DNA of 64,000 bases, taken from the IMG/VR virus record IMGVR_UViG_3300007231_000006. The stretch is one strand, 5' to 3'. Positions 1 to 62,278 of this stretch are shown here, piece after piece; the stretch's first letter is position 1, and every line of letters starts with the position of its first letter. Under the pieces are notes generated by a model that ran no database searches, was not told the DNA's origin, and saw only the letters and a list, made by a program, of their open reading frames with translations. Origin of the DNA: an uncultured virus (IMG/VR IMGVR_UViG_3300007231_000006). Taxonomy: Duplodnaviria; Heunggongvirae; Uroviricota; Caudoviricetes. A program made the translations under genes and the position numbers.

Positions 1-13
1 ACTGGCCAGCAAC

Positions 14-45
14 ACAAAGGAAATACGAACCATAACGGATAATAA
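14..45 (+). promoter_or_regulatory. Early promoter-like motif, copy 1 (ACA-N4-AAAYACGA-N9-GATAATAA)
   Basis: ACAAAGGAAATACGAACCATAACGGATAATAA; ATG at 50. Confidence 0.75.
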
Positions 46-49
46 AGAT

Positions 50-181
50 ATGAATAACAACATCCAACTACTGATGAGATCACCACTCGTCTCGCTGATC
101 AAGCATTTCCTTTGGTGTATGGTATATGTGGCAGTATTGCTAACATTCCTCGCGGCAGCGTGTCATCTTCACGATATGTAA
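50..181 (+). CDS. Small hydrophobic (single TM) early peptide, 43 aa
   Basis: Manual translation MNNNIQLLMRSPLVSLIKHFLWCMVYVAVLLTFLAAACHLHDM, directly after motif copy 1; below ORF-track cutoff. Confidence 0.55.
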   Translation: MNNNIQLLMRSPLVSLIKHFLWCMVYVAVLLTFLAAACHLHDM

Positions 182-278
182 GTCAAGTAACTTTCAACTT
201 AAAATGAAAGTACACTTTGAGAGAGTGCGGAGTAACTCTTCTAAATAATACTCAACTAAACAAGTGTGCTACTTTTGC

Positions 279-310
279 ACAACATAAATACGAAACCCAA
301 TAGATAATAA
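279..310 (+). promoter_or_regulatory. Early promoter-like motif, copy 2
   Basis: ACAACATAAATACGAAACCCAATAGATAATAA upstream of ORF 337. Confidence 0.75.
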
Positions 311-336
311 GTCTATAACAATTTAAATCTTTTACA

Positions 337-567
337 ATGTCAAATGTAATCCAATCAAAGCGCTTTGTCGTGCGCCAATCACTAATCGGCAAGAATCAAG
401 TTATCGAGGTAACTTTCAAGAGTGGCAACACTGTAACTTATAACCACGATGTCGCTTTCGAGATCATGAAAGATAAGCTAGAAACTCTGCCATGCTGGTT
501 AAAGTTCAAAAGCTACACTGCTAGCGGCAATATTCCAAAAGTGTTGCGCGACCAAAAGTTAGTGTAA
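337..567 (+). CDS. Hypothetical early protein
   Basis: 76 aa ORF, A/T-rich start context, downstream of motif. Confidence 0.75.
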   Translation: MSNVIQSKRFVVRQSLIGKNQVIEVTFKSGNTVTYNHDVAFEIMKDKLETLPCWLKFKSYTASGNIPKVLRDQKLV

Positions 568-642
568 CCACTCTTCTTAACTGCAGTCGGTGTTGAGCAA
601 TCGCCTTAACGACTATAAATAATATGAGCATGCGATTAACAT

Positions 643-776
643 ACACCTCCTCATGGGAGAGGCGTGTGAATGATTAAAAGGGTAAAACGCAGTAAGGTTG
701 TTTCTCTGCAGACAGCAGCCTGACCTGCAGCCGGTTTTAACGTCACGCGACGAAGGTTCGACTCCTTCGGGGTGTA
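643..776 (+). ncRNA. tRNA-like RNA with acceptor stem, T-arm and long hairpin replacing the anticodon arm (resembles tmRNA tRNA-like domain)
   Basis: ACACCTC(643-649)/GGGGTGT(769-775); GAC-GAAGG-TTCGACT-CCTTC; nested internal helices. Confidence 0.6.
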
Positions 777-778
777 CT

Positions 779-955
779 ATGGATATAAGTTTAATAATAC
801 TAGCTCTTGAAACTCTGCAAGAGCAAGTCAGTGACGCGATGTCAGTTGACGAACAAGCAGAAGACAGAGATAGATTTAACCGCATCAAGCGCGAGATCGA
901 GCTATTTAAAGCAGAGCAAATCATTGCTATGTTCACAAACAAAACACGAGAGTAA
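779..955 (+). CDS. Hypothetical early protein (start reassigned to ATG 779)
   Basis: MDISLIILALETLQEQ...; the upstream part of the track ORF overlaps the ncRNA. Confidence 0.6.
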   Translation: MDISLIILALETLQEQVSDAMSVDEQAEDRDRFNRIKREIELFKAEQIIAMFTNKTRE

Positions 956-966
956 GCAGATAATAA
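935..966 (+). promoter_or_regulatory. Early promoter-like motif, copy 3
   Basis: ACAAACAAAACACGAGAGTAAGCAGATAATAA; ATG at 971. Confidence 0.75.
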
Positions 967-970
967 AGAT

Positions 971-1246
971 ATGAAACAAAGTAATGAATTTAAGACAAAC
1001 TTCTGGTGCGGCGTAACAGCAGAGTACAAGAAGCAAAGCGATGGCTGGTGGTCAGTACACTGCCGCGATGCAAATGGTGGCAACGAAGGCCGATGGTTCA
1101 AGCATCTTACCGAATGCGAAGAGTTCACGGCAGAGTTCAAGCTGCCTGAGAATATCGCTAAACGTAAGCGTTCGCTTGACTTATTCAGCAATTACGTTAT
1201 GTCTTCAACTCGTAACTATAAAGGATATCGTGATGGCCTTGACTAA
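971..1246 (+). CDS. Hypothetical early protein
   Basis: 91 aa ORF immediately after motif. Confidence 0.7.
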   Translation: MKQSNEFKTNFWCGVTAEYKKQSDGWWSVHCRDANGGNEGRWFKHLTECEEFTAEFKLPENIAKRKRSLDLFSNYVMSSTRNYKGYRDGLD

Positions 1247-1379
1247 ACAACAGCAGCAAATCAGGTGTCAAATAGTATTAGACGACTTGTTAATGGTTGA
1301 GTTCGACGACTTCATGTACGGACTCGACAAGAAAAACGGCCTTATGCCATCACATGAATATAACACTAAAGTAAAGTAA
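1233..1379 (+). CDS. Hypothetical protein (start reassigned to ATG 1233)
   Basis: MALTKQQQQIRCQIVLDDLL..., fits operon tiling. Confidence 0.5.
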   Translation: MALTKQQQQIRCQIVLDDLLMVEFDDFMYGLDKKNGLMPSHEYNTKVK

Positions 1380-1380
1380 T

Positions 1381-1626
1381 ATGACACAAGATAAAGAGTG
1401 GTATTTAGTCCACGATCTCGCAGCAGCGATTAACAAAGGCAATAAAATGGCGTGCTTACGCATTAACGGAGGTAAAGACTCGACTAACTTCACAGGTTTT
1501 GACATCCAAGTGAAAATGCCTATCGCTGGAACGTGGAACTGCGCTTACGATGCTGCTAAGTACTTACTAAACGACGTGCGATCTAGCTTCAGCACGACTA
1601 CTATTGAATACTCATCTTCTTGGTAG
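1381..1626 (+). CDS. Hypothetical protein
   Basis: 81 aa ORF tiling with neighbours. Confidence 0.65.
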   Translation: MTQDKEWYLVHDLAAAINKGNKMACLRINGGKDSTNFTGFDIQVKMPIAGTWNCAYDAAKYLLNDVRSSFSTTTIEYSSSW

Positions 1627-1629
1627 ATT

Positions 1630-1661
1630 ACAAAATAAACACGATAACTAACAGATAATAA
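1630..1661 (+). promoter_or_regulatory. Early promoter-like motif, copy 4
   Basis: ACAAAATAAACACGATAACTAACAGATAATAA; ATG at 1666. Confidence 0.75.
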
Positions 1662-1665
1662 AGAC

Positions 1666-1761
1666 ATGAAACAATTCTTCTACAACAACGCAGTGCCATT
1701 CGTGCTGCTCACGCACACTACTTTCGTAGTAACAGTATGCATAACCGCTATAACACAGTAA
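1666..1761 (+). CDS. Small hydrophobic peptide, 31 aa
   Basis: Manual translation MKQFFYNNAVPFVLLTHTTFVVTVCITAITQ directly after motif. Confidence 0.5.
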   Translation: MKQFFYNNAVPFVLLTHTTFVVTVCITAITQ

Positions 1762-1765
1762 TAAT

Positions 1766-1915
1766 ATGGACTATAAAACAATGTTCGATCTTGCCATGGA
1801 GCAAAACGATTACCTTCTCAACGAACTAGAGTATAGCGAGGTAAAAGTAGAAAGTTTAGAAAGACAAATCAGAGAGTCACGCGACTTTCAAGAAGCACTC
1901 ACATCTCTACTATGA
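1766..1915 (+). CDS. Small coiled-coil protein, 49 aa
   Basis: MDYKTMFDLAMEQNDYLLNELEYSEVKVESLERQIRESRDFQEALTSLL; ATGA overlap with next ORF. Confidence 0.6.
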   Translation: MDYKTMFDLAMEQNDYLLNELEYSEVKVESLERQIRESRDFQEALTSLL

Positions 1916-2154
1916 CTAATATCACAAACGAGCAGCATGAATTGCCAGGCGACGTCAAGTGGTACTACGTAACACTGTTAGATTTTACTACAGGCGACGT
2001 ATTTCACTACAAAATCACGGAAGATCAAGTAATGCTAACCGACACCGATGGCGTAAGACACGCGCTCGACCAAATCCACCGACAAAACCACAGGTATGAG
2101 TTTATGCTACACGAGCAACCTCATCCTACTTACACAGAAATACTACAACTATGA
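1912..2154 (+). CDS. Hypothetical protein
   Basis: ATGA-coupled ORF. Confidence 0.7.
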   Translation: MTNITNEQHELPGDVKWYYVTLLDFTTGDVFHYKITEDQVMLTDTDGVRHALDQIHRQNHRYEFMLHEQPHPTYTEILQL

Positions 2155-2741
2155 ATGATTATCAAAGACAAGCAATGCGTTATCGGTGCGAGCCCGTGCA
2201 AAAAAATGCAATACGAGATGTATACGCAAAAGCACACGAAGGCCTATCGTGGACAAACAACGCTGAAAACACTTCTCAAGCTATCTACAGCATGCGAAAC
2301 GGTAACTCTATCATCTTAAAGCATTTCCTACAAGATCTAGGTTGGCAAGATATATCTACAAATGCACAGGTTAAAAACGGTACAACCGTCTTTGCTGTAG
2401 GCACGCCAAATTACGAAGGCTGTAGAATGCGCCAAGTTAAAATCGCTAGCTACAACAGTGGTTATATCCGCAAGTTTGTAGGCTATAGCGGCGCACACTA
2501 TCAGCTAAACAAGACTTTTCTTCAAAACCACCTTATCTGGTCAAGCTGGTCTAAAAAATACTACAATCAAACTCGAAGTGTGCGTATTCTAATACCAGCT
2601 GAAGTCGATCGACTTATTGCATTGCTTAACCACGTTGTCAACGAGTTGTACAATCAAGATACTGCTCGACAGACAGTTCAAGCCTTCAAAGACTTGCTTA
2701 ATGACGAATATGGCGTTTCTCGCCGCAAAACCAACGTATAA
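2151..2741 (+). CDS. Hypothetical protein
   Basis: 196 aa, ATGA/TAATG coupling. Confidence 0.75.
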   Translation: MNDYQRQAMRYRCEPVQKNAIRDVYAKAHEGLSWTNNAENTSQAIYSMRNGNSIILKHFLQDLGWQDISTNAQVKNGTTVFAVGTPNYEGCRMRQVKIASYNSGYIRKFVGYSGAHYQLNKTFLQNHLIWSSWSKKYYNQTRSVRILIPAEVDRLIALLNHVVNELYNQDTARQTVQAFKDLLNDEYGVSRRKTNV

Positions 2742-3034
2742 TGGCTAAAATAAACAAACAAATAGCGTTTAATAACTCCTTAAAGGAGCTCGCTGAAGAA
2801 GCTGCCGTAGAAATATACCATGAAGCGTATGATCTCGTTAGTGACAAAATGTACGAAGAAGCTATATTAGACAGGGAAGCGTTTGAAGTTGCACCGTTTG
2901 AAAAATATGAAGTCGAAGCGTTTCCTGTAGAAGGCAATAAAGTTTTTGCAACTGCTATAGATGATTTTGTTAGACACTTAGCTAATGAGTTACACTCTAT
3001 ACGTTTAGAAAACAATACCCAGCATTACGGCTAA
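2741..3034 (+). CDS. Hypothetical acidic protein
   Basis: 97 aa, TAATG coupling. Confidence 0.7.
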   Translation: MAKINKQIAFNNSLKELAEEAAVEIYHEAYDLVSDKMYEEAILDREAFEVAPFEKYEVEAFPVEGNKVFATAIDDFVRHLANELHSIRLENNTQHYG

Positions 3035-3039
3035 GAAAC

Positions 3040-3071
3040 ACAAAATAAACACGAACTAACACAGATAATAA
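3040..3071 (+). promoter_or_regulatory. Early promoter-like motif, copy 5
   Basis: ACAAAATAAACACGAACTAACACAGATAATAA; ATG at 3076. Confidence 0.75.
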
Positions 3072-3075
3072 TATT

Positions 3076-3285
3076 ATGAAATGCAAATGTAACACCCTAA
3101 TTCCAGAAGGCAGGTTAAAACTAGGCTATAAAGTCTGTGTTAACTGTTCGACTGTTGAGCGATATGGCTGCGCGCCATTAATAAACCACAAAACTGGTAA
3201 CTCTATTCAGATCATGTCACGTGGCGATGCAGCTCGCATTGCTAAAATGACACGGCGAAAAGGTTACGGAACAATGCTACGATGA
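3076..3285 (+). CDS. DksA/TraR-like C4 zinc-finger protein
   Basis: CxC...IPEGRL...CVNC resembles the CxxC..IPxxRL..CxxC finger. Confidence 0.55.
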   Translation: MKCKCNTLIPEGRLKLGYKVCVNCSTVERYGCAPLINHKTGNSIQIMSRGDAARIAKMTRRKGYGTMLR

Positions 3286-3452
3286 AGGACGCGCGTAAAT
3301 ACAGCCTTAAACCAGACTTTTTACCTAGAGAGTTCGATACCATAGAAGATTTAGTGCAATATGTGCTAGATCATGGTGTCGACCCAAGCTACGAGATCAC
3401 GCACGGAGGTGTAGATACAGGTGAAAAAGCAATAGACTTCATAGTGTGCTAA
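3282..3452 (+). CDS. Hypothetical protein, 56 aa
   Basis: Manual translation MKDARKYSLKPDFLPREFDTIEDLVQYVLDHGVDPSYEI...; ATGA overlap. Confidence 0.6.
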   Translation: MKDARKYSLKPDFLPREFDTIEDLVQYVLDHGVDPSYEITHGGVDTGEKAIDFIVC

Positions 3453-3455
3453 GTC

Positions 3456-3487
3456 ACAAAACAAACACGATCACTAATAGATAATAA
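3456..3487 (+). promoter_or_regulatory. Early promoter-like motif, copy 6
   Basis: ACAAAACAAACACGATCACTAATAGATAATAA upstream of ORF 3505. Confidence 0.75.
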
Positions 3488-3504
3488 TAATACAAACAAA
3501 CAAA

Positions 3505-3912
3505 ATGGAAATGCCATCACAAAACGAAACACCTAGTGAAGTCTACGACACTTGGATAAGAGAGCTAACAGCAGCAAAACAAAAGCTAACAGATGAACTT
3601 TATTCAGTAACAGCTGAAATTAGCGCCGCAGAGCAAGAAAAACAAAAAGCACTCAAACTTAGCGTTCCTGAAAGCTTAGTAGAGCATATTGCAGAGCAGG
3701 TGCAAGCTTCAGTTGACGCGTTTTTTGACGCCGCGCAAGACGAGCCTGATATGTTCGATATTGAGCTGTCGATGGGTTACGATAACAAGGTAGAAATATG
3801 CAATATAGATCTGTCATCTCTTAACATACCTGTTGAAGACTTTGTCGTAGCGGCTTTTGAAGACGAGTGTGTAATCACAACTCCTGCTGATGCCAGTGCT
3901 CTCAAAAGTTGA
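3505..3912 (+). CDS. Hypothetical acidic coiled-coil protein
   Basis: 135 aa ORF after motif. Confidence 0.75.
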   Translation: MEMPSQNETPSEVYDTWIRELTAAKQKLTDELYSVTAEISAAEQEKQKALKLSVPESLVEHIAEQVQASVDAFFDAAQDEPDMFDIELSMGYDNKVEICNIDLSSLNIPVEDFVVAAFEDECVITTPADASALKS

Positions 3913-3971
3913 ACTATGGTTCAATAAGAACTTTGGCTGGTTCTTTAAAAACGGAAATAAATAACGCGACG

Positions 3972-4164
3972 GCGTAAGGTGTACTTATGAAGGGCTAATC
4001 CTGCAAAGGTGAAATACAGCGCTGTAGTATACAACGGGCGTGGGTGTATGTACGACACCGTGATGTCACATGTAAGTACGACACAGGTAGCTCCTGTATT
4101 GCAGACACACGTTACGCACTGGCTTTGATTTATGGTCGCATAAATAGTGAGGTCAGTGCTTTTT
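3972..4164 (+). ncRNA. Putative structured ncRNA with pseudoknot and terminal hairpin/U-tract
   Basis: Several complementary segments in an ORF-free + strand gap (see findings). Confidence 0.45.
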
Positions 4165-4166
4165 AT

Positions 4167-4240
4167 AACCCTGTAGCTCAACTGGATAGAGCATCGCCCT
4201 TCTAAGGCGACGGTTAAGAGTTCGAATCTCTTCAGGGTTA
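4167..4240 (+). tRNA. tRNA-Arg (anticodon UCU)
   Basis: AACCCTG/CAGGGTT acceptor; GCTC/GAGC D-stem with TGG; TCGCC-CT-TCT-AA-GGCGA; AAGAG-TTCGAAT-CTCTT; CCA not encoded. Confidence 0.93.
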
Positions 4241-4245
4241 CACAT

Positions 4246-4322
4246 AGACAAGTATCTCCTCAAGCTTATACCTTGTAGAAAGAGTAGCTGGTCACACGTG
4301 GGTTCAAGTCCCACCTTGTCTA
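4246..4322 (+). tRNA. Atypical tRNA-Ile(UAU)-like RNA lacking a canonical D-arm position
   Basis: AGACAAG/CTTGTCT acceptor; CAAG-CTTATAC-CTTG anticodon arm; GTGGG-TTCAAGT-CCCAC T-arm; D-loop-like AGCTGG lies 3' of the anticodon arm. Confidence 0.65.
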
Positions 4323-4353
4323 CAAAACAAATACGATAACTAACAGATAATAA
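4322..4353 (+). promoter_or_regulatory. Early promoter-like motif, copy 7
   Basis: ACAAAACAAATACGATAACTAACAGATAATAA upstream of ORF 4363. Confidence 0.75.
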
Positions 4354-4362
4354 TAATAAAAA

Positions 4363-4728
4363 ATGGCATTAACATGGGACGTAACAGGTGTAGAAAACGC
4401 CTGGTCAAAAACAGAAAAACCAGAAGGCAACGAGATTCAGTTCTTTCAAATACCCTTCTACGAAGAAGACGGTCAGCGCTATGAGATGAACGAGATGCTT
4501 CATTACGCGCTAATGTCTACTATGACAGTAGGTATTGCCGAGATCACGAATAAAAACTATACCAAGTTTTACAACCGTGTAATCCACTTAAACCAAGTGC
4601 GGTGCGTTGAAACTCACGCGTCTATCACGTTAGAGGCTATAAAAAAATGCATCGGCTTGAAAACCAACGCTGAAACCATGACAAAATCTCAATTTGTCAA
4701 GAGAAGCACTAAATTCTTAGATCTTTAA
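4363..4728 (+). CDS. Hypothetical protein
   Basis: 121 aa ORF after motif. Confidence 0.75.
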   Translation: MALTWDVTGVENAWSKTEKPEGNEIQFFQIPFYEEDGQRYEMNEMLHYALMSTMTVGIAEITNKNYTKFYNRVIHLNQVRCVETHASITLEAIKKCIGLKTNAETMTKSQFVKRSTKFLDL

Positions 4729-4895
4729 TGAAAAAAGTAAAATTTCTAGAGCGTCATCTTTATGCGCCCGAACTAAACAAGCTATGGTATAATGATAATA
4801 CTTATAAAAAAGTACCTCAATGCACGACTATCGAAGAAGCAGAGAACCACGCAAGACTCGAAACCGCTATTAACCGCACAGACAAATACTTCTAA
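4728..4895 (+). CDS. Hypothetical protein, 55 aa
   Basis: TAATG coupling; MKKVKFLERHLYAPELNKLWYNDNTY... Confidence 0.5.
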   Translation: MKKVKFLERHLYAPELNKLWYNDNTYKKVPQCTTIEEAENHARLETAINRTDKYF

Positions 4896-5008
4896 TGGAA
4901 TAAAAATAAAAACAACCGTAACTGTAAACCCAGCTAAAAACTTTAACGAGTGGGCTCAAGGTATACACGCGCAGATCGACAAGAACTACAAAAACAAAAT
5001 TAACAATA

Positions 5009-5526: not shown

Positions 5527-6018
5527 ATGAGCATCAGGAAAAAAGTATTGATAAGGTTTGCCGACAGGCGCGCGGCTGTGGCTTTTAATTTTCATCCACA
5601 GAACTTCTTCTTAGAGGTTGAGTTAAACACGACAGATTGTCTAGAGTCTGTTCGCCAGAGAGTTGCCAGCGTGGCAACAGACAAGGCTTGGAGAGAGAAA
5701 AACATGGGCACTTTTGTCACTGAAAGCGTTATTGGGCTTAGCTTTAATATAGGTTTTCCTAATGATAGAATAAGAATAACAGGTAGATCAACCGCGGCAG
5801 GGGAAATCGACAAAGCTTTTGGCTGTGATGAAGTTGTATACGTCTGGTTTAAAGACACAACAGAGTTTATTAAAGACGGCTTAGATGCCAAGTTCGCCCG
5901 ATGGGATTGGTTGCAAAGCAATAATATACCTTGGATAAGCTGTTTTAACGGCCAGCACGGCCAGCGCTGCACAGTTGTTTCATCAGCTGTAAAGCTTTCA
6001 CCTGTAATGTACTTGTAA
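5527..6018 (+). CDS. Hypothetical protein
   Basis: 163 aa ORF. Confidence 0.65.
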   Translation: MSIRKKVLIRFADRRAAVAFNFHPQNFFLEVELNTTDCLESVRQRVASVATDKAWREKNMGTFVTESVIGLSFNIGFPNDRIRITGRSTAAGEIDKAFGCDEVVYVWFKDTTEFIKDGLDAKFARWDWLQSNNIPWISCFNGQHGQRCTVVSSAVKLSPVMYL

Positions 6019-6019
6019 C

Positions 6020-6051
6020 ACATAATAAATACGAATAACCATGGATAATAA
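6020..6051 (+). promoter_or_regulatory. Early promoter-like motif, copy 8
   Basis: ACATAATAAATACGAATAACCATGGATAATAA; overlaps ATG of ORF 6041, upstream of ligase. Confidence 0.65.
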
Positions 6052-6346
6052 AGATGACGATCTTGAAAGAGAACAAGACATTGAAGATCTGGCCAACAGA
6101 ATAGTAGGTAAGATAATGAAGATAAAAGCGTTAAGTGGCAAAGAATCGCAATACGCGTCGACTGAAGATCCGTTAGAAATGCTCGTACCTAACGTACCTA
6201 GGCTGTACAAGATGTATGGCGAGCTAGCAAAGCTTATGACTTTTCTAGGTTTGTTTGAAGAAGACGAAGAGTATGAAAAATGCGCTGAAATAAAAGAAAG
6301 AATAATGATGATAAATAAAATACTAGAGAAATATGATGAGATATAA
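6041..6346 (+). CDS. Hypothetical protein with UVR (UvrB/C)-like C-terminal motif
   Basis: EEDEEYEKCAEIKERI. Confidence 0.55.
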   Translation: MDNKDDDLEREQDIEDLANRIVGKIMKIKALSGKESQYASTEDPLEMLVPNVPRLYKMYGELAKLMTFLGLFEEDEEYEKCAEIKERIMMINKILEKYDEI

Positions 6347-11323: not shown

Positions 11324-11346
11324 ATACGAACACAAACAGATAATAA
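11315..11346 (+). promoter_or_regulatory. Early promoter-like motif, copy 9
   Basis: ACGTTATAAATACGAACACAAACAGATAATAA; ATG at 11351. Confidence 0.7.
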
Positions 11347-20183: not shown

Positions 20184-21533
20184 TTAGAAATTATAAATTG
20201 TCGTAGTGGTAGTGCTGCCTGATTCCACGAACGCCGTGGTGTCTATGACCGTAACGAAGTTTGTTCCATCGTTACTACCTAGCAACTTGAAGTGGGTTGC
20301 AACGTGGAAGTTGTCTACAACTGTAAGTTTAATGCTTTGAAAGGTTTCTGCTCCGTTTGCAAACCTAACTTGAATCCAGCTGTTGTTAGCAACATTGTTG
20401 CTTAGCGTCCACCACATTGAACTAGTAGCGTTGATTACTCCATCAAAAGCCTTCCATATAGCATACGTGCTAGAGTACTCATGCCCAGCAGACAGAACCA
20501 CCCCAGATATACTTGTTGTGCTAGTTGCGTCTCCGTTAGGTTCATGAGTGCCCCCTGCGTTTTGAGTTGGATACAATTCCATCTCAGCAAGCGCGTGACG
20601 AGCAGTGGTGTTGTTTCCGCTGCTATCTACCCCTTGTAACCTCCACACTGTAAAGCTAGTTGCTTGAACAACCGCAAACGTCTTAACTAACACGTTGCTT
20701 CCTAGCTCTCCTACGTCTGCGCAAAGTATTCTTAATTCATACCCTGTCGCAATGGTCATTGGTGCAACAACGGAGATGTTTCCGCTACTATCTACACTTC
20801 CATATATATTTTGAAATACCCCACTAGAATTAAAAACCTTAAGCAAATAAGTAGCGGTAGGAATATGATTGTCTATAGTGCCTGTTAATGTTGCTCCCTG
20901 TTGACCGCTTGTTCCAAAAGTTGCGGTAGGAGTAGCCGTTGTCGTTCCGCCGCCAGCGGTAGCCCACGATAAAACAGCAGACCCGTTTGTAGATAACACC
21001 TGCCCGCTGGATCCATCCGCTGCCGGAAGTTCCCAAACAGTGCTTGCTGATAAAGAACCATTAGCTTTAAAACCCACATACTCATCCCCAGAGGCTGCTG
21101 GTGCTTCTTTTAGTCTAATTTCACCAGCGGTATACCCATTGGAATTTGTAAACAAAACTGGCTCGCTAATAGTAACTAACCCGTCCTGAAGGACCATGAT
21201 ATTTGCATTGCCGTTTTTAAAAGAGAGTAAATTGTCAGCTAGGTCTACCTCTCTATTCCCTGTAATCTCTTGATTAGCCTCTCCCAGAACAGGCACTGTT
21301 ATATTAGCGCTACCATTAAAGCTCACCCCATTGATATTCCTGGCTGTAGCTAATGTAGTTGCCGTATCTGCGTTACCAGTTAAATCACCAGTAAACCCCT
21401 GTGTAGCGCTAACTTCACCTGCGAAAAAAGCGTTCTTTAACTTAACGCTTGACGTACCTAAGTCGGTTTGGCCGTTAGTCTTAGCTTGTAGCGCGCCATC
21501 GTTTAAAACTACGTCACTGTAAAATTTTGGCAT
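20184..21533 (-). CDS. Tail fibre/receptor-binding protein with C-terminal discoidin-like domain
   Basis: GNADTATTLATAR repeat; LPAADGSSGQVLSTNGS..LSW; KAFDG..W..FKLLGSNDG. Confidence 0.75.
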   Translation of the reverse strand: MPKFYSDVVLNDGALQAKTNGQTDLGTSSVKLKNAFFAGEVSATQGFTGDLTGNADTATTLATARNINGVSFNGSANITVPVLGEANQEITGNREVDLADNLLSFKNGNANIMVLQDGLVTISEPVLFTNSNGYTAGEIRLKEAPAASGDEYVGFKANGSLSASTVWELPAADGSSGQVLSTNGSAVLSWATAGGGTTTATPTATFGTSGQQGATLTGTIDNHIPTATYLLKVFNSSGVFQNIYGSVDSSGNISVVAPMTIATGYELRILCADVGELGSNVLVKTFAVVQATSFTVWRLQGVDSSGNNTTARHALAEMELYPTQNAGGTHEPNGDATSTTSISGVVLSAGHEYSSTYAIWKAFDGVINATSSMWWTLSNNVANNSWIQVRFANGAETFQSIKLTVVDNFHVATHFKLLGSNDGTNFVTVIDTTAFVESGSTTTTTIYNF

Positions 21534-28124: not shown

Positions 28125-29165
28125 TTAAAAGATCACACAGTTTAACCCACACTTAAAGTTGTACCACTCACGATTCCAGTACCTGTTGTATTTACCTTCA
28201 ACAAAGAAACCTAAGTTGCGGTTTACCTTGTATCCAACTATCAACCCAGCTGAGTAATCCACCCATTGGCCACCTACAAAATTGTTGTATAAAAAATCAT
28301 CACCATTATCATAGTGCATAGGCATAACGCTACCCCAGGAGTGTAGCCAAAAGCTTTTCGTGTAGTGATACAGGTCAAATCCTAATACTATAGAGTGTTG
28401 AACTAGATTATTTAGTTCGTTTCTTTTCTTTTTAGAGTAGTCAAGTATAACGTTAGGTATAACAACTTCTTCCCAGACCTCGTGGCTGGTAGCTACAAGC
28501 TCACCGCTTGGGTTGTAGAACTCGCCATTAGTAACGTCAACAGTGTAACCCTCTTGTATAGCTAAGTACGTATAGTGTATATCTCCATTTTCTAAAATCC
28601 AATCAGAAAGAGGATTGTAACCATATGGCTCTGCCAGTCTTTGAGCTAGCCCTAAATTGAACGAGAGCTTCTTACCGATCTTCTGTCTATATCTTTCTGA
28701 AGCCTCGACGTAGGAGACATCAGCAAAGCCATCTTGAAGGAATTGACACTTTAGTATATATCGATCACCTACGTATCTCAAAAAGTGGTCTTGATCCAAG
28801 AACTCTTGACCCATTTGCCTTTTGTACTTAATCTCAGAAAGAAACTCTAGTCCGTTTCTTTTACCTATGTTAGCGGCATCTGACAAAGACTCCTCAGACC
28901 CGTCGTAAAAAACATTAGCCCTATTTTCGTAACCAAACCTAGCAATTTTCCTAACACCTATGGTTAGGCTATAGTCGTATGGTGTTTCTTGAAGCGTAGA
29001 GCCTAAGCCGTTCGCTACCGAGTACACGGTTTGATCTGCTATTGAGTTGCTTCCGCTTGCCGCGGCGTAAAACGTAGAGAATTTAAAAGCATCCTTTAAT
29101 ACCTGAGAGCTAGCAACGCTGCATGTTAGCAACGTGGTAATTAATATTAATCGTGATAGTAACAT
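28125..29165 (-). CDS. Putative outer-membrane beta-barrel protein
   Basis: Signal peptide, aromatic amphipathic strands (YSAGLIVGYK, LGFFVEGKY), C-terminal Phe. Confidence 0.6.
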   Translation of the reverse strand: MLLSRLILITTLLTCSVASSQVLKDAFKFSTFYAAASGSNSIADQTVYSVANGLGSTLQETPYDYSLTIGVRKIARFGYENRANVFYDGSEESLSDAANIGKRNGLEFLSEIKYKRQMGQEFLDQDHFLRYVGDRYILKCQFLQDGFADVSYVEASERYRQKIGKKLSFNLGLAQRLAEPYGYNPLSDWILENGDIHYTYLAIQEGYTVDVTNGEFYNPSGELVATSHEVWEEVVIPNVILDYSKKKRNELNNLVQHSIVLGFDLYHYTKSFWLHSWGSVMPMHYDNGDDFLYNNFVGGQWVDYSAGLIVGYKVNRNLGFFVEGKYNRYWNREWYNFKCGLNCVIF

Positions 29166-32100
29166 AGTCCAGATTTATTTGATGTTTGCATCTTACAACG
29201 CTTGCCGTCGCTTTTAATGTGAGAGCACTGCTCTTTAACGCCGTCAGTCCGTTGCTCTGCTTCCTCATGTATGGTACAGAAGTTTTTACCTTCAACAACC
29301 TTTGTCCCGCATCTCTTACCAGCTCTGTTAACGGCTGCGCAAAGTATGTTTTCTTCACCTTGCGCTCTTTCTTCCTCTTGAATCTCTAAGTTCTCGTCTT
29401 CAACTTTTTGATCCTCTTCTTCTCTCTCTTTTTCTCTTTCAACTTTTCTTTCTTCCCTTCTTTTTTCTGTAGCAGCATCTCTAAGATCTCTAACTTCTCC
29501 TTTAGCATCAGTGAGAGACTGGTTCTGGATACCTAGACTCCAACTACTCCACCCAAGTGCTAATGCTATTCTTTTCCACATTTCGTTTTCTGAATTTAAA
29601 GCTTCCTTTATGTTACTAAACTTGTTGTAAGCTCTGCTTAAGGGCAGGTTTGTTAACGCTTCTGTAGCCGTGAATATAGCATCATAAGCAGGGTTGTCTA
29701 TATCTGTCTTACTCATGTGGTCAATAACCTCGTTGTTAAACTCCCACGTTTGGGCAGCGCTGTATAGCTTTCTAGCTTTAATACCTATAGGTGGAGAAAG
29801 ATTCAAGGCTTCAAGCAGAGTGTAGGCGTGATCTGGCTGTGTAAAGAACACACCATCATTGTCTTTTTCTTGCTCTTGAGCAAATCTTATTATCACGTTC
29901 TTTAAAGTCGAAACAACAGCACCACCTATTCCAGCTCCTCTAAGGATACCGTCCACCATGCCGTTTACTACACGTTCTTTCTTTTTAGCGTTTTTATCTT
30001 CGTCGTCTTCTTCGTCGTCGTCAAACAACATAGCAAACATAGCGTTTTGCAAACTATAGAATATAGCGTTTTGTATTGCGCCGTAATAAAGTATCTTTGA
30101 TATATGCGTTTTTGCATCGCCTCTACCGTTAACTAGATCTTGAGCCGCCTTTTTAATAAGACGGTTGTATTGCATTGGTGTGTTCTGAAAAGCAAGTATC
30201 AACTTACCCAGTGGCGAGGCCTGCTGTTGGGATATTCTATCTGGTCGAGCGGACTGTTGCGTTTCCTCTGCAATCTCCATGAAGTCTAGAAAAGCTTTAG
30301 CTTCAGCGTCAGCTTTGTTCATACCTTCAGCCATCAAAGACTTTATCCTATTTCTATACATGGTAGCGCCACCGCTTGCGATTGCAAAACTGTCAGCTAT
30401 CTGCGTAGGTGTAAAACCAACCTGCAGCAAGTAACCCATAGCTGCTCTAGCAGGGTTCTTGGCCCCTCTAACAGCTTCCATCAACTCAGCAGTGTTAACG
30501 TCTTGGGTCAAACCAGATCTTCTTTGCTTCAAGAAGTCAGAGTTGAATATCATAGACATGTCAGCCCAGTACTGTTTCTGATTACCAAATGCCGCTGCTG
30601 CTTTCAACGGGTTGTTATCGCTCCAGTTTATAAAGTTTACCGTAGATAGAGTCTGAAGTACTGCTGATCTAGAGTTGAAGAACATCGTCGCGCCAATAGA
30701 ACCGTTGATCCAGTTCATAAAGTTGTTGAGTAGTCTTCCTTGGCCTTTAGAACGGTTACTACCAGTCTCCATCCTGAACAAAGAGTCTTCTAAAGCTTCT
30801 CTAAAGTTAGAGCCATAGACGGCCTCTATCTTGTTCATGTTAGCGTCGTTGAATATGACTTTAACATTATTCTTCCACTGGTCCAGGTATGTCCCTCTTG
30901 CAATGTCTAGGGCATCCTTTAGATCTGTAGTGATATTACCGGCCAACCAGTCGTTACCTGCTTGTTGAAGCCCTCCAGGCATTTGAGCTATACTAGAGAC
31001 TGTTTCAGCAAATTGCTTAAGATCAGCATTGTTCTCCACTTTTTTAACTAGCGTATCAGTGTCAGCCTGTGATAAACCGGGTACAGTAAGCCCTGCTTTA
31101 ACCCAGTTGTAAACCCTGACAGCGTGCTCGTTGGTGTATTCAGTTCCTGGAATTGTTTTCTTAAGTAGGTTTTTAACGCCAGGCATAGCCTTCTTAAGAG
31201 CTCGCATATCGCTCGCGACGACTGTTTGAACAGCGTTCAAGTGCCTAATGCCTTTTGAGTAAGGATCGAACAAATGCTCTTTAAACCAAGCATGGTGCTT
31301 TTCCCCTTGCTTACCTTTACCTAAAAAACTATACATTAAACCAGCGAAGTCATCCGCTGAAGGCGGTATAAAGAACTTGTACTTACCCTTGTCCTTGCCT
31401 CTTTGTCTTGCTTTCGCAGGAGAGAAAGTTTTTTCAGCTTTAACGCCTTTGGTTTGCTCAAGCGTTATGTTAAACTCTTTATTAAGGTCTGCAGCGCCTT
31501 CGTCAATAATACCGTCCATCACCACTGGTGCTTTCTTGCTAAACTGGACTTTAGCTAACTGCACCACACCTTTAACGTCGAAACGGTTAAACATGTCTTT
31601 AACAGCATCAACGTTTTGTAGTGCGTCGTCAGCAAAGTAAAGATCATTATACCCATTTGCTATTAAGTTCTCAGCGATCCAACTGGCTTTAGCTTGGCCC
31701 GTTGAGTTACCTAGACCTTTGATGTTCTCCATAGGTATGTTAAGACCAACACCTTTTAGAAACTCGTATATAGCCTGCTGAGCTTGAGGTGCTCTAGCGG
31801 TAAGTATAAACTGATCTTTTGTCCCAAACTTCTTAGCTCTTTCAAGAGCTTTGTTAAGCAGTGGTCCTGGCTTGCCTTCAGTAACTTTATTAAACTCAGA
31901 GAAATCAAACTCATAACCATCAGCTAGAAGTTCACTACCCTGTGTTGCAAATTCTTCCGCGCTTAGCTTTCCTTTAACGCCGTCAGGACTAGTGAACAAT
32001 ACGTCTGACTTAGTTCTAGCTAATGTATCGTCAAAATCCCAGACGCTTGCTCCTTTAGGTTTTTTAGAAAAACTAATACCCCTGTAGGCTTCGTTTAAAG

Positions 32101-35100
32101 CCTGAATATCCGAGGCTTTCACGTCTGTTTTAGAGTCTAAAGCTTTAGCGGCTTCAACAAAGTTTTTTCCAACAAACTCTGCTGGAGTGCCTTTTTTAGC
32201 AGGATCTATACTTCTAATAGCCCTTAGTCTTGGATCTCTAAAGGTTTTCATGTTATAGTTTCTAGAGCCTCCATCTGCCGGTGATCTTCGTTGGTACCCA
32301 GCCTCTACAATCACCCTATCCATTGATTTAGGTATGACCTGCACCTTATAGTTCTCCCAAACATTGTTGTTCAGCTCTCCTTCATTAAGGTAAGAGTGTA
32401 ATATCTTTATAGCGACCTCTTCTTGAGGCACCATGTGTTCATACTCTGTAACTTTTCCTATTGACTTACCTTTTTTTGCTGCGTCTGCAATCAACTGTTC
32501 GGTTCCCTCTGCAATGTACTCTGCTGGCGCCGCTCTTCTAATAGGAGCCTGCATGCCTGAACCCATGCTCGTGACAATCATAGCAAAATCAGCGTAGTCA
32601 TAACCTCCTTCCTTCGAGTTTATTCTTTCCCAGTAAAAATCAAGAGCTGTCTTAACTGCTTTTCTGGCTTTATCTGCCTGAGCTTTTCTTGATTCAAACT
32701 CACGTAAAGGGTTTGTTTCGACGCCTTTCAAAAAAGCCTTAGAGCTTTCTCCCAGCAAAGTTGTTTCTAGCTTGACCCCATTTAAAGAGTATCCTTTACC
32801 GCTTTTCTTCAACGACTCTAGTCCAGGTATAGATCTAAGCGTATTTATAAAGTCAGCTTGATTAGAAAATATTTGTTTTCTATTTTTTGGTGGCTTTCCG
32901 TCTTTGTTAATAGAGTCTTTTACTAACTGGTCCCACGCAGGGTTGTCGATAACCACGTTGTCGTCGACAACAAACCTACCGTCAGCCATTTTAGCAGCTC
33001 TTGAGTACATACCAGAAAAGTAAGCAATCATAATCTCTGCCGCTTCTTGTAAGGAAGAACCTTCCTCAACCATCTTGTTGCCTATACCTACTACAGCGGC
33101 TCTGTTTCTTTGAACCCTGTCTGCTTCTAAAAAGTGAGCTCCAATTGGGATTGTTTTTCCTTTAGAGTTTTTAGGTAAAACATCTCTTAAAGCGCCTATA
33201 ATACCTGGGTCTAAGCTTTCTTGAGCAAAGTTGTCATTTAAAAACTCATCAAGAGACTTCGGTACACCCACTACTTTCGCTCCAGCTTTGTGAGCAGAGA
33301 CAATTCTGTTGTAGTCTTTAGTTTGTTCCCATATGTTCTTCGCTATAGCTTTTCTTTCTCTATTAGAAAACCCTAGCTCATCTGTTAAAACGCTTGCGAC
33401 AGCTATTTCCACGGACTTTAAATCAGCTGGATTAGAAGCCGCAACTTGTTTTGCCAAAGAGTCAAACTGTTCGGTAAATTGATCTTTGTTTTTATCAGAG
33501 ACCTTTTTGCTAAACATAACCTCTGATCTTCCATCACCCAACAAAGCAACCGTTGCTTCGGCGAACGTGCCGTTTTCTAAAGCGTTTTCTCTAATAGCTT
33601 GGTTAGCAACTATCACAGCTGTTTGATTAACCATAGCTTTAATCGCCCCGTCAAACTTCTTGTTACCGTCAAGCGTTCCGTCTGGTTTGATACCAAACAA
33701 AGCGTTAAACTCTTCTGTTGTAACGTCAGTTCTTTTAGTTTGAGAAAACTTACCTTGTGTTCCAGCTCCTTCAGCAGCTTTTACTCTACCACCTTTCTCG
33801 TACAACTCGCTTAGCTTGCTTTTTGCGACGCCCGTGGCCTGACCACTTCTAGTCTCACCTTCTGGTAGTAACTCTAAAAGTGCTTTTGAGTTTTTCTTTA
33901 TATACTCTTGAGCAGCTTTTCTTTGCGCTCCATTTAAGTCAGCTGGCTTAACAATTCTTTTTGCCTCTATACCAAACTCAGTCGCTACAGCGTCTAACAC
34001 GCCTGAAAGCGAAGAGCCAGGGGTTGACGTTAGCTTCTTAACGCCTTTATATGTTAGTCCCTCAAGGTTAACTTTAGCGTCGTTCACAACGGTCTCAATG
34101 CCAGAGATGACCTTAGGAGACATACTTAAAGACTCAGCTGCCTTAACACCCTGTCTCTTTCTTCTTCTCACTCTAGGCCTGTTCCTAGACCCTACAGACA
34201 GATCCTGTTCTTCAAAACTTGTTGTGCTTTCGTCTACTTCAGCTTCTATCTGAGCAGCAAAAGAATCTCCTCCTCCAGAATCCATACTTGCGTCAATAGA
34301 AACAGTAGCAAGTTGGTTGTCCTCCTTGTACTTGTTCATGACGTCGCCTTTGGCTCTGTAGATAATAGAACGTCCTGCGCCTCCAGATACACCGGTTAAC
34401 CAACCAAACAAACTATCGTTTTTGGCTACGTCGTAGTTTTTTAAAAACCGTTCGCCTATATTACTCTTAACCTTTACTGTAAAATCACGTAGCGCGTCAG
34501 GTGGTAAACCAAGGTCAGTCATACCTTGTTGGATAAGACCGTCTAGAGTTCTACCTTCAACCAGGTGTAAGTAAGCCTCGTAATATTCTGGCGCAACCTT
34601 AAATTCTTCGTTATTCTCAAACTTTCTATCACCGGCTTCGTCTTGAACAAAAGTGTCAATCTCGCTTTTCATGTCAGGGTTTGCCCGCATGTTTGAATCC
34701 ACTGCTCTTGAAAACTGAGCCCGCTGTTTTTCCTCAACGGCTTTAGCAACACCGGCGTCTCTTTTTTCCTGAGCCTCTTGAATTAGCCCTCCACTAGCGC
34801 CTTCAGCTGTAAGTCGAGAGATTCTAGCATCCTTCTTACCTTTGTTAAGCGATCTATGAAAGTCCTTCATAAAATTCCTAACATCGTTGCTAGTATCGAA
34901 CTTTATATCACGGTTTATTTTGAGTTGAAAGATTCTTCTGAAAAAATCCTTGAGCCTACCCATAGCAGAGTCATCTATAGTTATATCACCGTTAGCCATT
35001 AACTCTGAAACAATAGCTAAGGTCTCTTCTCCTTGCTCTCCTTTCTTATATTCTTTCAACCGCGCTTTAAGTATCGCGGACCCTTTTTTAGTTATGTTAA

Positions 35101-62277: not shown

Positions 62278-62278
62278 A

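What the first reader, a model, noticed from the sequence alone, without database searches (positions are those of the whole stretch)
643..779. About 135-nt tRNA-like RNA resembling a tmRNA tRNA-like domain with no mRNA domain
Seen: acceptor ACACCTC/GGGGTGT, T-arm GAAGG-TTCGACT-CCTTC preceded by GAC, and a small CTC-ATGG-GAG element at the D position. A long irregular hairpin replaces the anticodon arm: GCGTG/CACGC, TTAAAA/TTTTAA, GCAG/CTGC, AGGTTGTT/AGCAGCCT, TCT/AGA. Established: tmRNA has a long P2 helix and a short GAC linker before the T-stem in the SmpB-binding region. No tag ORF space and no G3-U70 alanine determinant are present. Inference: an early phage RNA acting as an SmpB/tmRNA mimic or decoy for tRNA-targeting defence enzymes.
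Basis: partly seen in the sequence, partly recalled or inferred. Interest (0 to 1): 0.78.

Follow-up and report, generated by a model that had tools for sequence, protein, structure and literature searches.

The report
Phage tRNA look-alike without anticodon
An uncultured aquatic phage carries a real, conserved RNA of about 135 bases shaped like the top half of a tRNA, with a long hairpin where the anticodon arm should be; it belongs to a large uncatalogued family of such look-alikes, whose job is untested (probably a cutting mark for host tRNA-trimming enzymes, possibly a decoy).

Summary
Window 643-779 folds as a 7-bp acceptor stem, a small hairpin with a GG loop, an 87-nt irregular hairpin, a GAC linker and a canonical T-arm, then A and CTA. 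ARAGORN and Rfam call nothing there.

Three diverged lineages keep this architecture, with compensatory changes in the acceptor, the small hairpin and the base of the long hairpin.

It is the long-form member of a large family of anticodon-less tRNA-like elements (35-137 nt). These lie after a conserved 76-aa gene in 57 of 90 related loci, against 1 of 90 on the opposite strand and 0 of 69 upstream controls. Covariation is strong.

It is not a tmRNA tRNA-like domain (TLD) by membership. Rfam tmRNA gives no hit at E<=10. Pair 3:70 is A-U here, G.U or G-C in relatives. The D region has a stem.

A covarying pseudoknot sits directly upstream. My best reading (0.42) is a tRNA-shaped processing module cut by host RNase P and RNase Z. 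A trans-acting decoy is not excluded.

This scan had noted similar armless tRNA mimics in other phages.

The parts
337..567 (+). Conserved 76-aa gene of unknown function directly upstream. Its homologues mark the syntenic position of the tRNA-like family.
   Evidence: 33 related loci in viral contigs. 251 relatives in metagenome contigs, of which 79 loci were kept. Alignment A4 has 17 invariant residues. AlphaFold2 pLDDT 91.5. No Pfam family and no fold match.
586..613 (+). Hairpin S1: GTCG 586-589 with CGAC 610-613, 20-nt loop.
   Evidence: On A5 (22 sequences) 4 of 4 stem pairs show compensatory changes and 95% of cells are paired.
599..637 (+). Pairing S2 between the loop segment AATCGC 599-604 and GCGATT 632-637. 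With S1 it makes an H-type pseudoknot, or an alternative hairpin.
   Evidence: In the window's lineage L040 has AATCGC/GCGGTT, a one-sided change that keeps T.G. In 20 other sequences the equivalent pairs covary: CG 10/UA 6/UG 4 and AU 7/GC 7/GU 4. The G.U intermediates lie on the + strand.
614..627 (+). Conserved A-rich motif TATAAATAATATGA. It is loop 3 of the pseudoknot and resembles the upstream half of a motif repeated before ORFs in the window.
   Evidence: Found within 80 nt upstream of 36 of 56 family members. The repeated ORF-upstream motif has 10 copies against 0.15 expected.
643..649 (+). Acceptor stem, 5' strand ACACCTC.
   Evidence: Pairs with 769-775. Compensatory changes at pairs 3:70 and 5:68 in L039 and L040.
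650..661 (+). D-like mini hairpin CTC/GAG with loop ATGGGA. The loop GG is a candidate partner of the T-loop.
   Evidence: C-G changes to U-A in L039 and L040. GG is invariant in 28 of 28 short-form relatives.
662..748 (+). 87-nt irregular hairpin in place of the anticodon arm. No 7-nt anticodon-type loop.
   Evidence: MFE fold. Its base, 662-665/745-748, is kept with 2 compensatory pairs in L039 and L040. The inner part is not alignable between lineages. Three strain variants (A679G, C704T, C746T) each turn a Watson-Crick pair into G.U.
749..751 (+). GAC linker before the T-stem.
   Evidence: Identical in the window, L038, L039 and L040. The Rfam tmRNA consensus has GGAC here.
752..768 (+). 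T-arm GAAGG-TTCGACT-CCTTC.
   Evidence: This is the only part that Rfam's tRNA model aligns (12.8 bits, E 8). T-stems covary across the family.
769..779 (+). Acceptor 3' strand GGGGTGT 769-775, discriminator A776, trailer CTA. CCA is not encoded. A779 is the first base of the next ORF's ATG.
   Evidence: Real tRNAs in related loci have the same ACTAAAA trailer.
779..955 (+). Downstream 58-aa ORF that starts 3 nt after the discriminator. It is not conserved among relatives.
   Evidence: ORF list. The only related locus is the window's own near-identical contig.
4246..4321 (+). Second anticodon-less tRNA-like element (7-bp acceptor AGACAAG/CTTGTCT, T-arm GTGGG-TTCAAGT-CCCAC), 4 nt after tRNA-Arg(TCT) 4167-4241.
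   Evidence: Script scan and sequence. Missed by ARAGORN and Rfam. Weak match to model R1, 11.7 bits. Fold z only -1.05.

Best explanation
The element is a tRNA-shaped RNA module read on the + strand together with its flanks. Only the parts that host tRNA-maturation enzymes recognise are kept: the coaxial acceptor/T-arm stack and the T-loop/GG-loop elbow.

Inferred mechanism:
1. RNase P cuts at 642/643. This leaves the upstream 76-aa-gene message ending 5 nt after a pseudoknot (586-637), which could shield its 3' end.
2. RNase Z or trimming exonucleases cut after A776. This frees the next message with a 2-nt leader before its ATG at 779.
3. The excised piece of about 134 nt, CCA-tailed or not, is a by-product or a stable RNA of secondary use.

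The 87-nt arm is a lineage-specific insert that only has to fold without disturbing the chassis.

Shown: the structure, its conservation and covariation, the synteny, the pseudoknot covariation, the adjacency to the ORF. Inferred: every enzymatic step.
For: 1. Only the top half of the tRNA shape is conserved. In 28 short-form relatives 99.6% of cells in 10 pairs are paired, 9 of 10 pairs have compensatory changes, and 0 of 500 shuffles reach the observed values. GG and the T-loop are invariant. The region between varies from 6 to about 100 nt.
2. The window's long form keeps the acceptor, mini hairpin, helix base and T-arm in three lineages: 24 predicted pairs, 7 with compensatory change.
3. 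The family sits on the coding strand after the 76-aa gene in 57 of 90 loci. All 41 matches to model R1 in 100 loci are on the + strand.
4. The next ATG lies within 40 nt of the discriminator in 46 of 56 members, and 3 nt away here.
5. The neighbour that is conserved is the upstream gene, not the downstream ORF.
6. A pseudoknot ending 2-5 nt before the acceptor covaries through G.U intermediates on the + strand. So RNA spanning 599-637 is under selection and the transcript starts upstream of it.
7. Contigs from RNA libraries bridge 464-621 and 580-803. This is weak: contigs only, depth about 3, and DNA carry-over is not excluded.
8. Genuine tRNAs in related loci carry the same A+CTAAAA trailer.
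9. Precedent: tRNA-like t-elements at mRNA ends, read as signals for RNase P/Z cleavage (abstract of PMC1920247). The MALAT1 3'-end structure with mascRNA is a further parallel, recalled and not checked here.
Against: - No transcript ends were seen. The runs are contigs that cannot show ends.
- The A-rich motif before the element resembles the upstream half of a likely promoter motif. The RNA could then be an independent gene whose product matters in itself.
- All three strain variants inside the long arm preserve pairing, which hints at constraint beyond 'anything that folds'.
- A related phage keeps a canonical TLD-only tmRNA, so at least some family members probably act in trans.
- 33 of 90 loci lack an element within 450 nt, so it is dispensable as punctuation.
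- Most short forms stack only 6+5 pairs, one fewer than a tRNA. What that does to cleavage is unknown.
Confidence: 0.42

Rival explanations
1. Trans-acting tRNA mimic. The excised, stable, non-decoding RNA competes with tRNAs for a host factor that reads the acceptor/T-arm/elbow. Candidates are a processing or modification enzyme, or a toxin or defence nuclease or transferase that attacks tRNA acceptor ends. Alternatively the tRNA chassis stabilises and displays the variable arm as the active part.
For: GG and the T-loop are invariant in 28 of 28 sequences. 36 of 56 members have the promoter-like A-rich motif upstream, as does tRNA-Arg. All three strain variants in the arm preserve pairing. 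There are several different tRNA-like elements per genome: window 643 and 4246; L028 at 3284, 5804 and 5991. Arm content is lineage-specific.
Against: No partner is identified. No RNA-related protein was found in 25 early ORFs. The 76-aa neighbour has no known fold. The arm has no complementarity above chance to the window, at most 10 nt. Depth in RNA-library contigs is no higher over the element than over its neighbours, though such libraries capture small structured RNAs poorly.
Confidence: 0.25
2. One reading: a TLD-only tmRNA mimic that binds SmpB and blocks or diverts trans-translation.
For: The order of parts matches the Rfam tmRNA consensus line, including GAC before the T-stem and discriminator A. 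L028 5991-6072 in a related contig is a TLD-only tmRNA (64.7 bits against a gathering score of 47, with G3.U70). DS6A's TLD-only gene and its reported inhibition of tmRNA in E. coli are in print (passages of PMC4131195 and PMC11915505).
Against: No Rfam tmRNA hit at E<=10. Pair 3:70 is A-U here, G.U in L040 and G-C in L039, so alanine identity is not selected. The D region has a supported 3-bp stem, whereas the TLD D-loop has none and SmpB binds it extended (PMC3968760 passages). The helix base lacks the 5' GAC that pairs as G.A/A.G in the model. Syntenic relatives have no long helix. No tRNA or tmRNA hit at E<=5 in 16 loci with short or long forms.
Confidence: 0.1
3. A decaying tRNA gene or a DNA-level feature (integration-site remnant, promoter hairpin) with no RNA function.
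For: A cluster of tRNA genes in an unrelated 90-kb viral contig (L003) holds a cloverleaf-like sequence with the same T-arm and 3' acceptor strand. It scores below Rfam's tRNA threshold.
Against: Compensatory changes in three helices across lineages. Family-wide covariation. Strand specificity of 57 against 1 in 90 loci. G.U-type variants only make sense on the + strand RNA. No integrase was seen among the proteins scanned.
Confidence: 0.05

Closest known systems
TLD-only ('standard, no CDS') tmRNA, e.g. mycobacteriophage DS6A. PMC4131195 Table 2 and text; PMC11915505 counts 9 unique sequences of this form.
   Same: Phage-encoded and non-decoding. Acceptor stem plus T-arm plus a reduced D region, a helix in place of the anticodon arm, GAC before the T-stem, discriminator A, no tag ORF. 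A contig of the same phage group (L028) has a bona fide example.
   Different: No G3.U70, and no G1-C72 or G2-C71. A D-like stem is present. The 5' GAC and tandem G.A base of the helix are absent. CCA is not encoded. It fails the Rfam tmRNA model. The long helix is absent from most syntenic homologues.
t-elements of plant mitochondria (PMC1920247, abstract). Also the mascRNA/MALAT1 3'-end module, which is recalled and was not read here.
   Same: A tRNA-like structure inside a longer transcript, at the junction of two messages, presumed to be cut by RNase P and RNase Z. Here there is also a structured element (a pseudoknot) just upstream of the presumed RNase P site.
   Different: It is in a bacteriophage. 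Cleavage is not shown. The family keeps an unusually canonical T-loop and GG loop. A promoter-like motif lies upstream.
Canonical tRNA (Rfam RF00005), including intron-bearing tRNA genes
   Same: 7-bp acceptor, 5-bp T-stem, T-loop TTCGACT, discriminator A, and the same 3' trailer as the real tRNAs of related phages.
   Different: No anticodon arm or loop. The junctions are 3-4 nt shorter than a cloverleaf: 0 nt between acceptor and D, 3 nt before the T-stem. ARAGORN finds nothing and Rfam aligns the T-arm only. The 77-87-nt insert matched no Rfam family at the gathering score, introns included.
   Same: Non-coding RNAs that copy the tRNA elbow.
   Different: No Rfam match to any of them. In YrlA the tRNA-like part is internal to a protein-binding stem (recalled; only the listing of PMC4201824 was seen). 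Here the RNA ends form the acceptor.

Membership tests
tmRNA tRNA-like domain (RF00023; TLD-only form) | Score at or above Rfam's gathering threshold of 47 bits | tested here: not met
   No tmRNA match at E<=10 in 560-860. L028 5991-6072 scores 64.7 bits in the same test.
tmRNA tRNA-like domain (RF00023; TLD-only form) | G3.U70 wobble pair, stated to be conserved in all ssrA (PMC3968760 passage) | tested here: not met
   A645-T773 in the window. G.U in L040, G-C in L039.
tmRNA tRNA-like domain (RF00023; TLD-only form) | Discriminator A followed by CCA | tested here: inconclusive
   A776 is present, followed by CTA. The Rfam-positive L028 copy also has ACTA, so CCA could be added after transcription.
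tmRNA tRNA-like domain (RF00023; TLD-only form) | Acceptor stem formed by the 5' and 3' ends, and a tRNA-type T stem-loop | tested here: met
   643-649/769-775 and 752-768.
tmRNA tRNA-like domain (RF00023; TLD-only form) | Reduced D-loop without a stem (PMC3968760 passage) | tested here: not met
   650-652/659-661 pair, with a C-G to U-A compensatory change in L039 and L040.
tmRNA tRNA-like domain (RF00023; TLD-only form) | Helix 2 starting with 5' GAC paired to 3' GGA, then one C before the T-stem (Rfam consensus line) | tested here: inconclusive
   A helix is present and the 3' GAC is present (749-751). The 5' side reads AGG, not GAC.
tmRNA tRNA-like domain (RF00023; TLD-only form) | Binds SmpB | not testable with these tools
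   No RNA-protein docking or assay is available.
tRNA (RF00005) | Cloverleaf with anticodon arm, detected by ARAGORN or the Rfam model | tested here: not met
   ARAGORN finds only tRNA-Arg 4167-4241. The Rfam tRNA model aligns 749-768 only, 12.8 bits against a gathering score of 29.
tRNA-like processing signals (t-element type) | tRNA-like acceptor/T-arm structure at the boundary of two messages on the coding strand | tested here: met
   It lies between ORFs 337-567 and 779-955. 57 of 90 syntenic loci have one, on the + strand only.
tRNA-like processing signals (t-element type) | Transcript ends created by RNase P and RNase Z at the element | not testable with these tools
   Only contigs of RNA libraries were available, and they cannot show ends.
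   All four features and the synteny are present. The covariance model itself misses the window's copy because of the 87-nt insert.

The most novel reading that the evidence does not exclude
These phages use a tRNA chassis as a natural scaffold. A family of anticodon-less tRNA mimics, perhaps descended from a captured tmRNA tRNA-like domain, is cut out and stabilised by the host's own tRNA enzymes. It then acts in trans. The bare chassis would serve as a decoy for factors that read tRNA acceptor ends (SmpB, acceptor-targeting toxins or defence enzymes). The interchangeable arms of 0-90 nt would be lineage-specific payloads.
Probability: 0.2. Interest if true: 0.85.

Novelty: new variant of a known kind. 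Interest (0 to 1): 0.6.

Why it matters
Phage tRNA genes are usually read as codon-usage helpers or as replacements for tRNAs cut by defence systems. Here a whole group of uncultured aquatic phages keeps RNAs that copy only the half of a tRNA that processing enzymes, EF-Tu, SmpB and acceptor-targeting toxins see, and that cannot decode.

- If they are processing marks, phages punctuate their early messages with host tRNA enzymes. That device is described for organelles and for one mammalian long non-coding RNA. My five text searches did not find it described for phages.
- If they act in trans, they are a new class of phage counter-measure or translation modulator.

Either way the family is missed by ARAGORN and Rfam and could be added as a model. 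It spans a graded series, from a canonical TLD-only tmRNA to 35-nt minihelices, which is useful for asking what each host factor needs.

Tried and rejected
- Detection tools. ARAGORN, Rfam at gathering score and Rfam at E<=10 call nothing at 643-779 beyond the T-arm. Rfam at E<=5 on 16 loci holding short or long forms gives no tRNA or tmRNA hit.
- Cultured phages. blastn of 300-1300 and tblastn of the 76-aa protein against 50,697 phage records find no match. Model R1 finds nothing in MW202828.1 and only E 0.43 in Flavobacterium phage elemoF. So I found no cultured carrier.
- Nearest held virus record, G001: no match.
- Downstream 58-aa ORF: only the window's own near-identical contig is related.
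- Pattern scans for the long form's 3' half: only the same contig in viral contigs, and 0 in 185,579 species genomes. So no host tRNA of origin was found.
- Model R1 on the window misses 643-779 because of the large insert. Its best hit, 20279-20204 (-), lies inside ORF 20184-21533 and lacks a T-arm, so I rejected it.
- Intron-bearing tRNA: rejected. There is no anticodon stem-loop left after removing any insert, the junctions are too short, and no Rfam intron family reaches its gathering score.
- Tag ORF: ARAGORN calls none.
- Partner protein. Pfam on 25 early ORFs gives nothing RNA-related. The 76-aa protein folds confidently but Foldseek's best E is 0.99 and VIA-align's best Z is 3.1.
- Antisense target of the arm within the window: at most 10-nt matches, E>=3.3.
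- Virion-RNA-polymerase-type DFDxD motif in the 3096-aa protein: none.
- Sigma-70 and terminator scan of 1-5000: promoter-like sites at the chance level, none at the element.
- RNA-library contigs. Stretches without cover (for example 480-540 in X16/X17) and the small shares of X18-X20 say nothing. Depth about 3 is no measure of expression.
- No complex prediction was run, because the tool takes proteins only.

Full report
**What is there**

Window 643-779 (+ strand) lies in a 211-nt gap between a 76-aa ORF (337-567) and a 58-aa ORF (779-955), in a block of small + strand ORFs.
- acceptor 643-649/769-775, 7 pairs
- T-arm 752-768 with loop TTCGACT
- GAC 749-751
- an 87-nt irregular hairpin, 662-748

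The unconstrained fold gives exactly this four-way layout (-49.9 kcal/mol; shuffles -39.2 +/- 3.8; z -2.83; 1 of 200 as good). ARAGORN finds only tRNA-Arg(TCT) at 4167-4241. Rfam at gathering score finds only that tRNA. At E<=10 the only relevant Rfam row is the tRNA model on the T-arm alone (12.8 bits, E 8). There is no tmRNA row.

**The genome**

The large proteins are a primase/helicase, ribonucleotide reductase, DNA ligase, a sigma-like protein, portal and large terminase.

The terminase's relatives among 50,697 phage records number 87. The best is an uncultured podovirus from a spring (62.9%). The rest are phages of Flavobacterium (68), Cellulophaga (15), Tenacibaculum (2) and Maribacter (1), at about 44% identity.

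The host is therefore probably a member of the Flavobacteriia. That is an inference. The DNA occurs in freshwater and marine metagenome runs.

**Relatives of the element**

- An IMG/VR contig carries an identical copy.
- The upstream 76-aa protein is well conserved (17 invariant residues). It retrieved 33 viral loci and 79 metagenome loci.
- L038 (99% protein identity) has the element with two changes.
- L039 (105 nt) and L040 (127 nt), from proteins 79% and 77% identical, have diverged long forms.

RNAalifold on the four sequences predicts 24 pairs, 7 of them with compensatory changes:
- acceptor pairs 3:70 (A-U, G-C, G.U) and 5:68 (C-G, A-U)
- a 3-bp hairpin, 650-652/659-661 (C-G to U-A)
- the base of the long helix, 662-665/745-748 (two compensatory pairs, one G-C/G.U)

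The T-arm and GAC are invariant. Beyond its base the long arm cannot be aligned between lineages: L039 folds it into two short hairpins.

Within the window's own lineage there are three variable sites inside the arm:
- A679G (L038)
- C704T (L038, and a contig of run X16)
- C746T (contigs of X16 and X17)

Each turns a Watson-Crick pair into G.U on the + strand.

**A larger family**

In most related loci the syntenic element is far shorter. It has a 6-7-bp acceptor, a 10-13-nt linker with an invariant GG (for example AACGGTTAAT or CATGGTGCCGAG), a canonical T-arm, then A and CTA or CAA.

Twenty-eight such sequences align almost without gaps. On 10 named pairs, 99.6% of cells are paired. Nine pairs have changes on both sides (58 cells). 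No shuffle of 500 reaches the observed values, and slid controls fall to 23-70% paired.

Those sequences were picked by a script that demanded pairing, so I ran a control. Among 90 distinct loci with at least 450 nt after the gene:
- 57 have an element on the + strand
- 1 of 90 has one on the reverse strand of the same regions
- 0 of 69 upstream control regions have one

A covariance model of the short form (R1) finds 41 matches at E<=0.01 in 100 loci, all on the + strand.

Intermediate and long members carry different inserts at different places: L013, L022 and L030 (52-53 nt), L008 and L010 (68-86 nt), L021 and L048 (88-89 nt), L024, L027 and L050 (114 nt).

The window has a second anticodon-less element at 4246-4321, 4 nt after tRNA-Arg.

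**Relation to tmRNA**

One related contig (L028) has three tRNA-like elements. The third, 5991-6072, matches Rfam tmRNA end to end at 64.7 bits (gathering score 47, E 3.5e-25), with 304 model positions replaced by 12 nt. It is a TLD-only tmRNA with G3.U70 and ACTA at its end.

Such genes are in print. DS6A is listed as 'TLD only'. A similar molecule is said to inhibit tmRNA, perhaps by titrating SmpB (passages of PMC4131195). A 2025 database paper counts 9 unique 'standard, no CDS' sequences and repeats the DS6A statement (passages of PMC11915505). I did not see Mao et al. 2009, the paper they cite.

Measured against the alignment line printed, the window's element has the same order of parts and the same 3' GAC. 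It differs in four ways:
- no G1-C72, G2-C71 or G3.U70
- AGG instead of GAC at the 5' base of the helix
- a supported D-like stem, where the TLD has none (PMC3968760 passages)
- no model score

Pair 3:70 changes as an ordinary pair, both in this lineage (A-U, G.U, G-C) and in the 114-nt group (G.U in L024, A-U in L027, G-C in L050). So alanine identity is not being selected. It works perhaps like a TLD, but it is not a member.

**Upstream context**

Directly before the element lies a hairpin, S1 (586-589/610-613). The 3' part of its loop (599-604) is complementary to 632-637, forming pairing S2. The conserved A-rich TATAAATAATATGA (614-627) lies between them.

On 22 aligned relatives:
- all 4 S1 pairs show compensatory changes (95% paired)
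- the inner S2 pairs covary through G.U intermediates: CG 10/UA 6/UG 4, and AU 7/GC 7/GU 4
- 0 of 500 shuffles reach the observed paired percentage or covariation score

The window and L040 use a shifted S2, which that count treats as unpaired.

G.U intermediates are only tolerable on the + strand as RNA. So an RNA spanning at least 599-637 is under selection. S2 ends 2-5 nt before the acceptor in most members.

The A-rich motif is found within 80 nt upstream of 36 of 56 members, mostly 11-13 nt from the acceptor. It resembles the upstream half of a motif, ACGA-N8/9-GATAATA (extended consensus about CACAAAAYAAAYACGA-N8-AGATAATAA). That motif occurs 10 times in the window against 0.15 expected. 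Nine copies are on the + strand, just before ORFs.

Whether that motif is a promoter is not shown.

**Transcription**

Four RNA-library runs hold parts of the region, as contigs only. One contig spans 580-803 (the whole element with its leader). Another spans 464-621 (from the 76-aa gene into the hairpin). Depth is about 3, and DNA carry-over cannot be excluded. This fits co-transcription with the flanks. It says nothing about ends or abundance.

**Mechanism**

What is conserved is the coaxial acceptor/T-arm stack and the T-loop/GG elbow. From established knowledge, which I recall here and did not test, this is what RNase P, RNase Z and the CCA-adding enzyme recognise.

What lies between is free to vary from 6 to about 100 nt. 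The next ATG is within 40 nt of the discriminator in 46 of 56 members, and 3 nt away here. The conserved neighbour is the upstream gene, not the downstream one. A covarying pseudoknot ends just before the presumed RNase P site.

The reading I rank first (0.42) is a processing module:
1. RNase P makes the 3' end of the upstream message, which is then capped by the pseudoknot.
2. RNase Z makes the 5' end of the next message.

This is as proposed for plant mitochondrial t-elements (abstract of PMC1920247). It also resembles the mammalian MALAT1/mascRNA arrangement (recalled).

A trans role is not excluded, and the two readings are compatible:
- general tRNA-top-half decoy or tRNA-scaffolded arm, 0.25
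- SmpB decoy specifically, 0.10
- remnant or DNA-level feature, 0.05

About 0.18 remains for functions I have not thought of.

**Novelty**

Anticodon-less tRNA mimics in phages are known as single cases (DS6A). Earlier notes of this scan list several more in other phages. Those notes are unchecked AI readings, not evidence.

This family is large. It runs in a graded series from 35-nt minihelices to a canonical TLD-only tmRNA, comes with a pseudoknot leader, and is invisible to ARAGORN and Rfam. In five full-text searches I did not find it described. That covers only the open-access library searched.

I rate it a new variant of a known kind, interest 0.6.

Noticed in passing
window 25-44, 290-309, 946-965, 1641-1660, 3051-3070, 3467-3486, 4333-4352, 6031-6050, 11326-11345 (+); 62277-62297 (-): Ten copies of ACGA-N8/9-GATAATA, against 0.15 expected by chance. 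Extended consensus is about CACAAAAYAAAYACGA-N8-AGATAATAA. Each + strand copy lies 5-35 nt before an ORF start. It is probably the phage's early or middle promoter, or another start signal. Several ATGs sit 6 nt after it, which would give very short leaders.
   Followed up: partly
window 4246-4321: A second anticodon-less tRNA-like element (7-bp acceptor, T-arm with loop TTCAAGT), 4 nt after tRNA-Arg(TCT). It runs straight into a copy of the repeated motif. L007 and L012 have the tRNA-Arg but not this element.
   Followed up: partly
L028 5991-6072 (IMG/VR contig of a related phage): A TLD-only tmRNA gene that passes Rfam's gathering score (64.7 bits) with G3.U70. It is preceded at 5804-5909 by a 106-nt tRNA-like element and by a long-range hairpin that ends 4 nt before its acceptor.
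   Followed up: partly
L008, L009, L010, L013, L014, L017, L020, L022 and others, 60-120 nt upstream of their tRNA-like element: A further hairpin with a conserved 15-nt loop, TGAAGTGCYGATTAG. Its stems differ by compensatory changes (CTACATG/CATGTAG, CCACTCG/CGAGTGG, CCTCGGC/GCCGAGG). It is absent from the window: 0 matches with up to 2 mismatches.
   Followed up: partly
window 218-249: A second hairpin (AGAGT/ACTCT) followed by TCTAAATAAT and a stretch complementary to its loop, upstream of the 76-aa gene. It has the same build as the pseudoknot at 586-637.
   Followed up: no
L040 1101-1211: A 107-nt tRNA-like element with an encoded ACCA end, lying between the 76-aa gene and the pseudoknot leader of the long-form element. 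That makes two tRNA-like elements in tandem.
   Followed up: no
window 337-567: The 76-aa protein is highly conserved across more than 100 loci and folds confidently (pLDDT 91.5). It has no Pfam family and no structural match. Some relatives (L006, L016, L024, L027) carry two tandem copies.
   Followed up: partly
window 29147-38437 (-): A 3096-aa ORF with no PHROG family at E<=1e-5 and no DFDxD motif. Next to it is a 1911-aa virion structural protein.
   Followed up: no
L003 1452-1528 (unrelated 90-kb viral contig): A cloverleaf-like sequence with anticodon-loop TAT inside a cluster of seven tRNA genes. It shares the T-arm and 3' acceptor strand with the window's element but is not called by Rfam at gathering score.
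   Followed up: no
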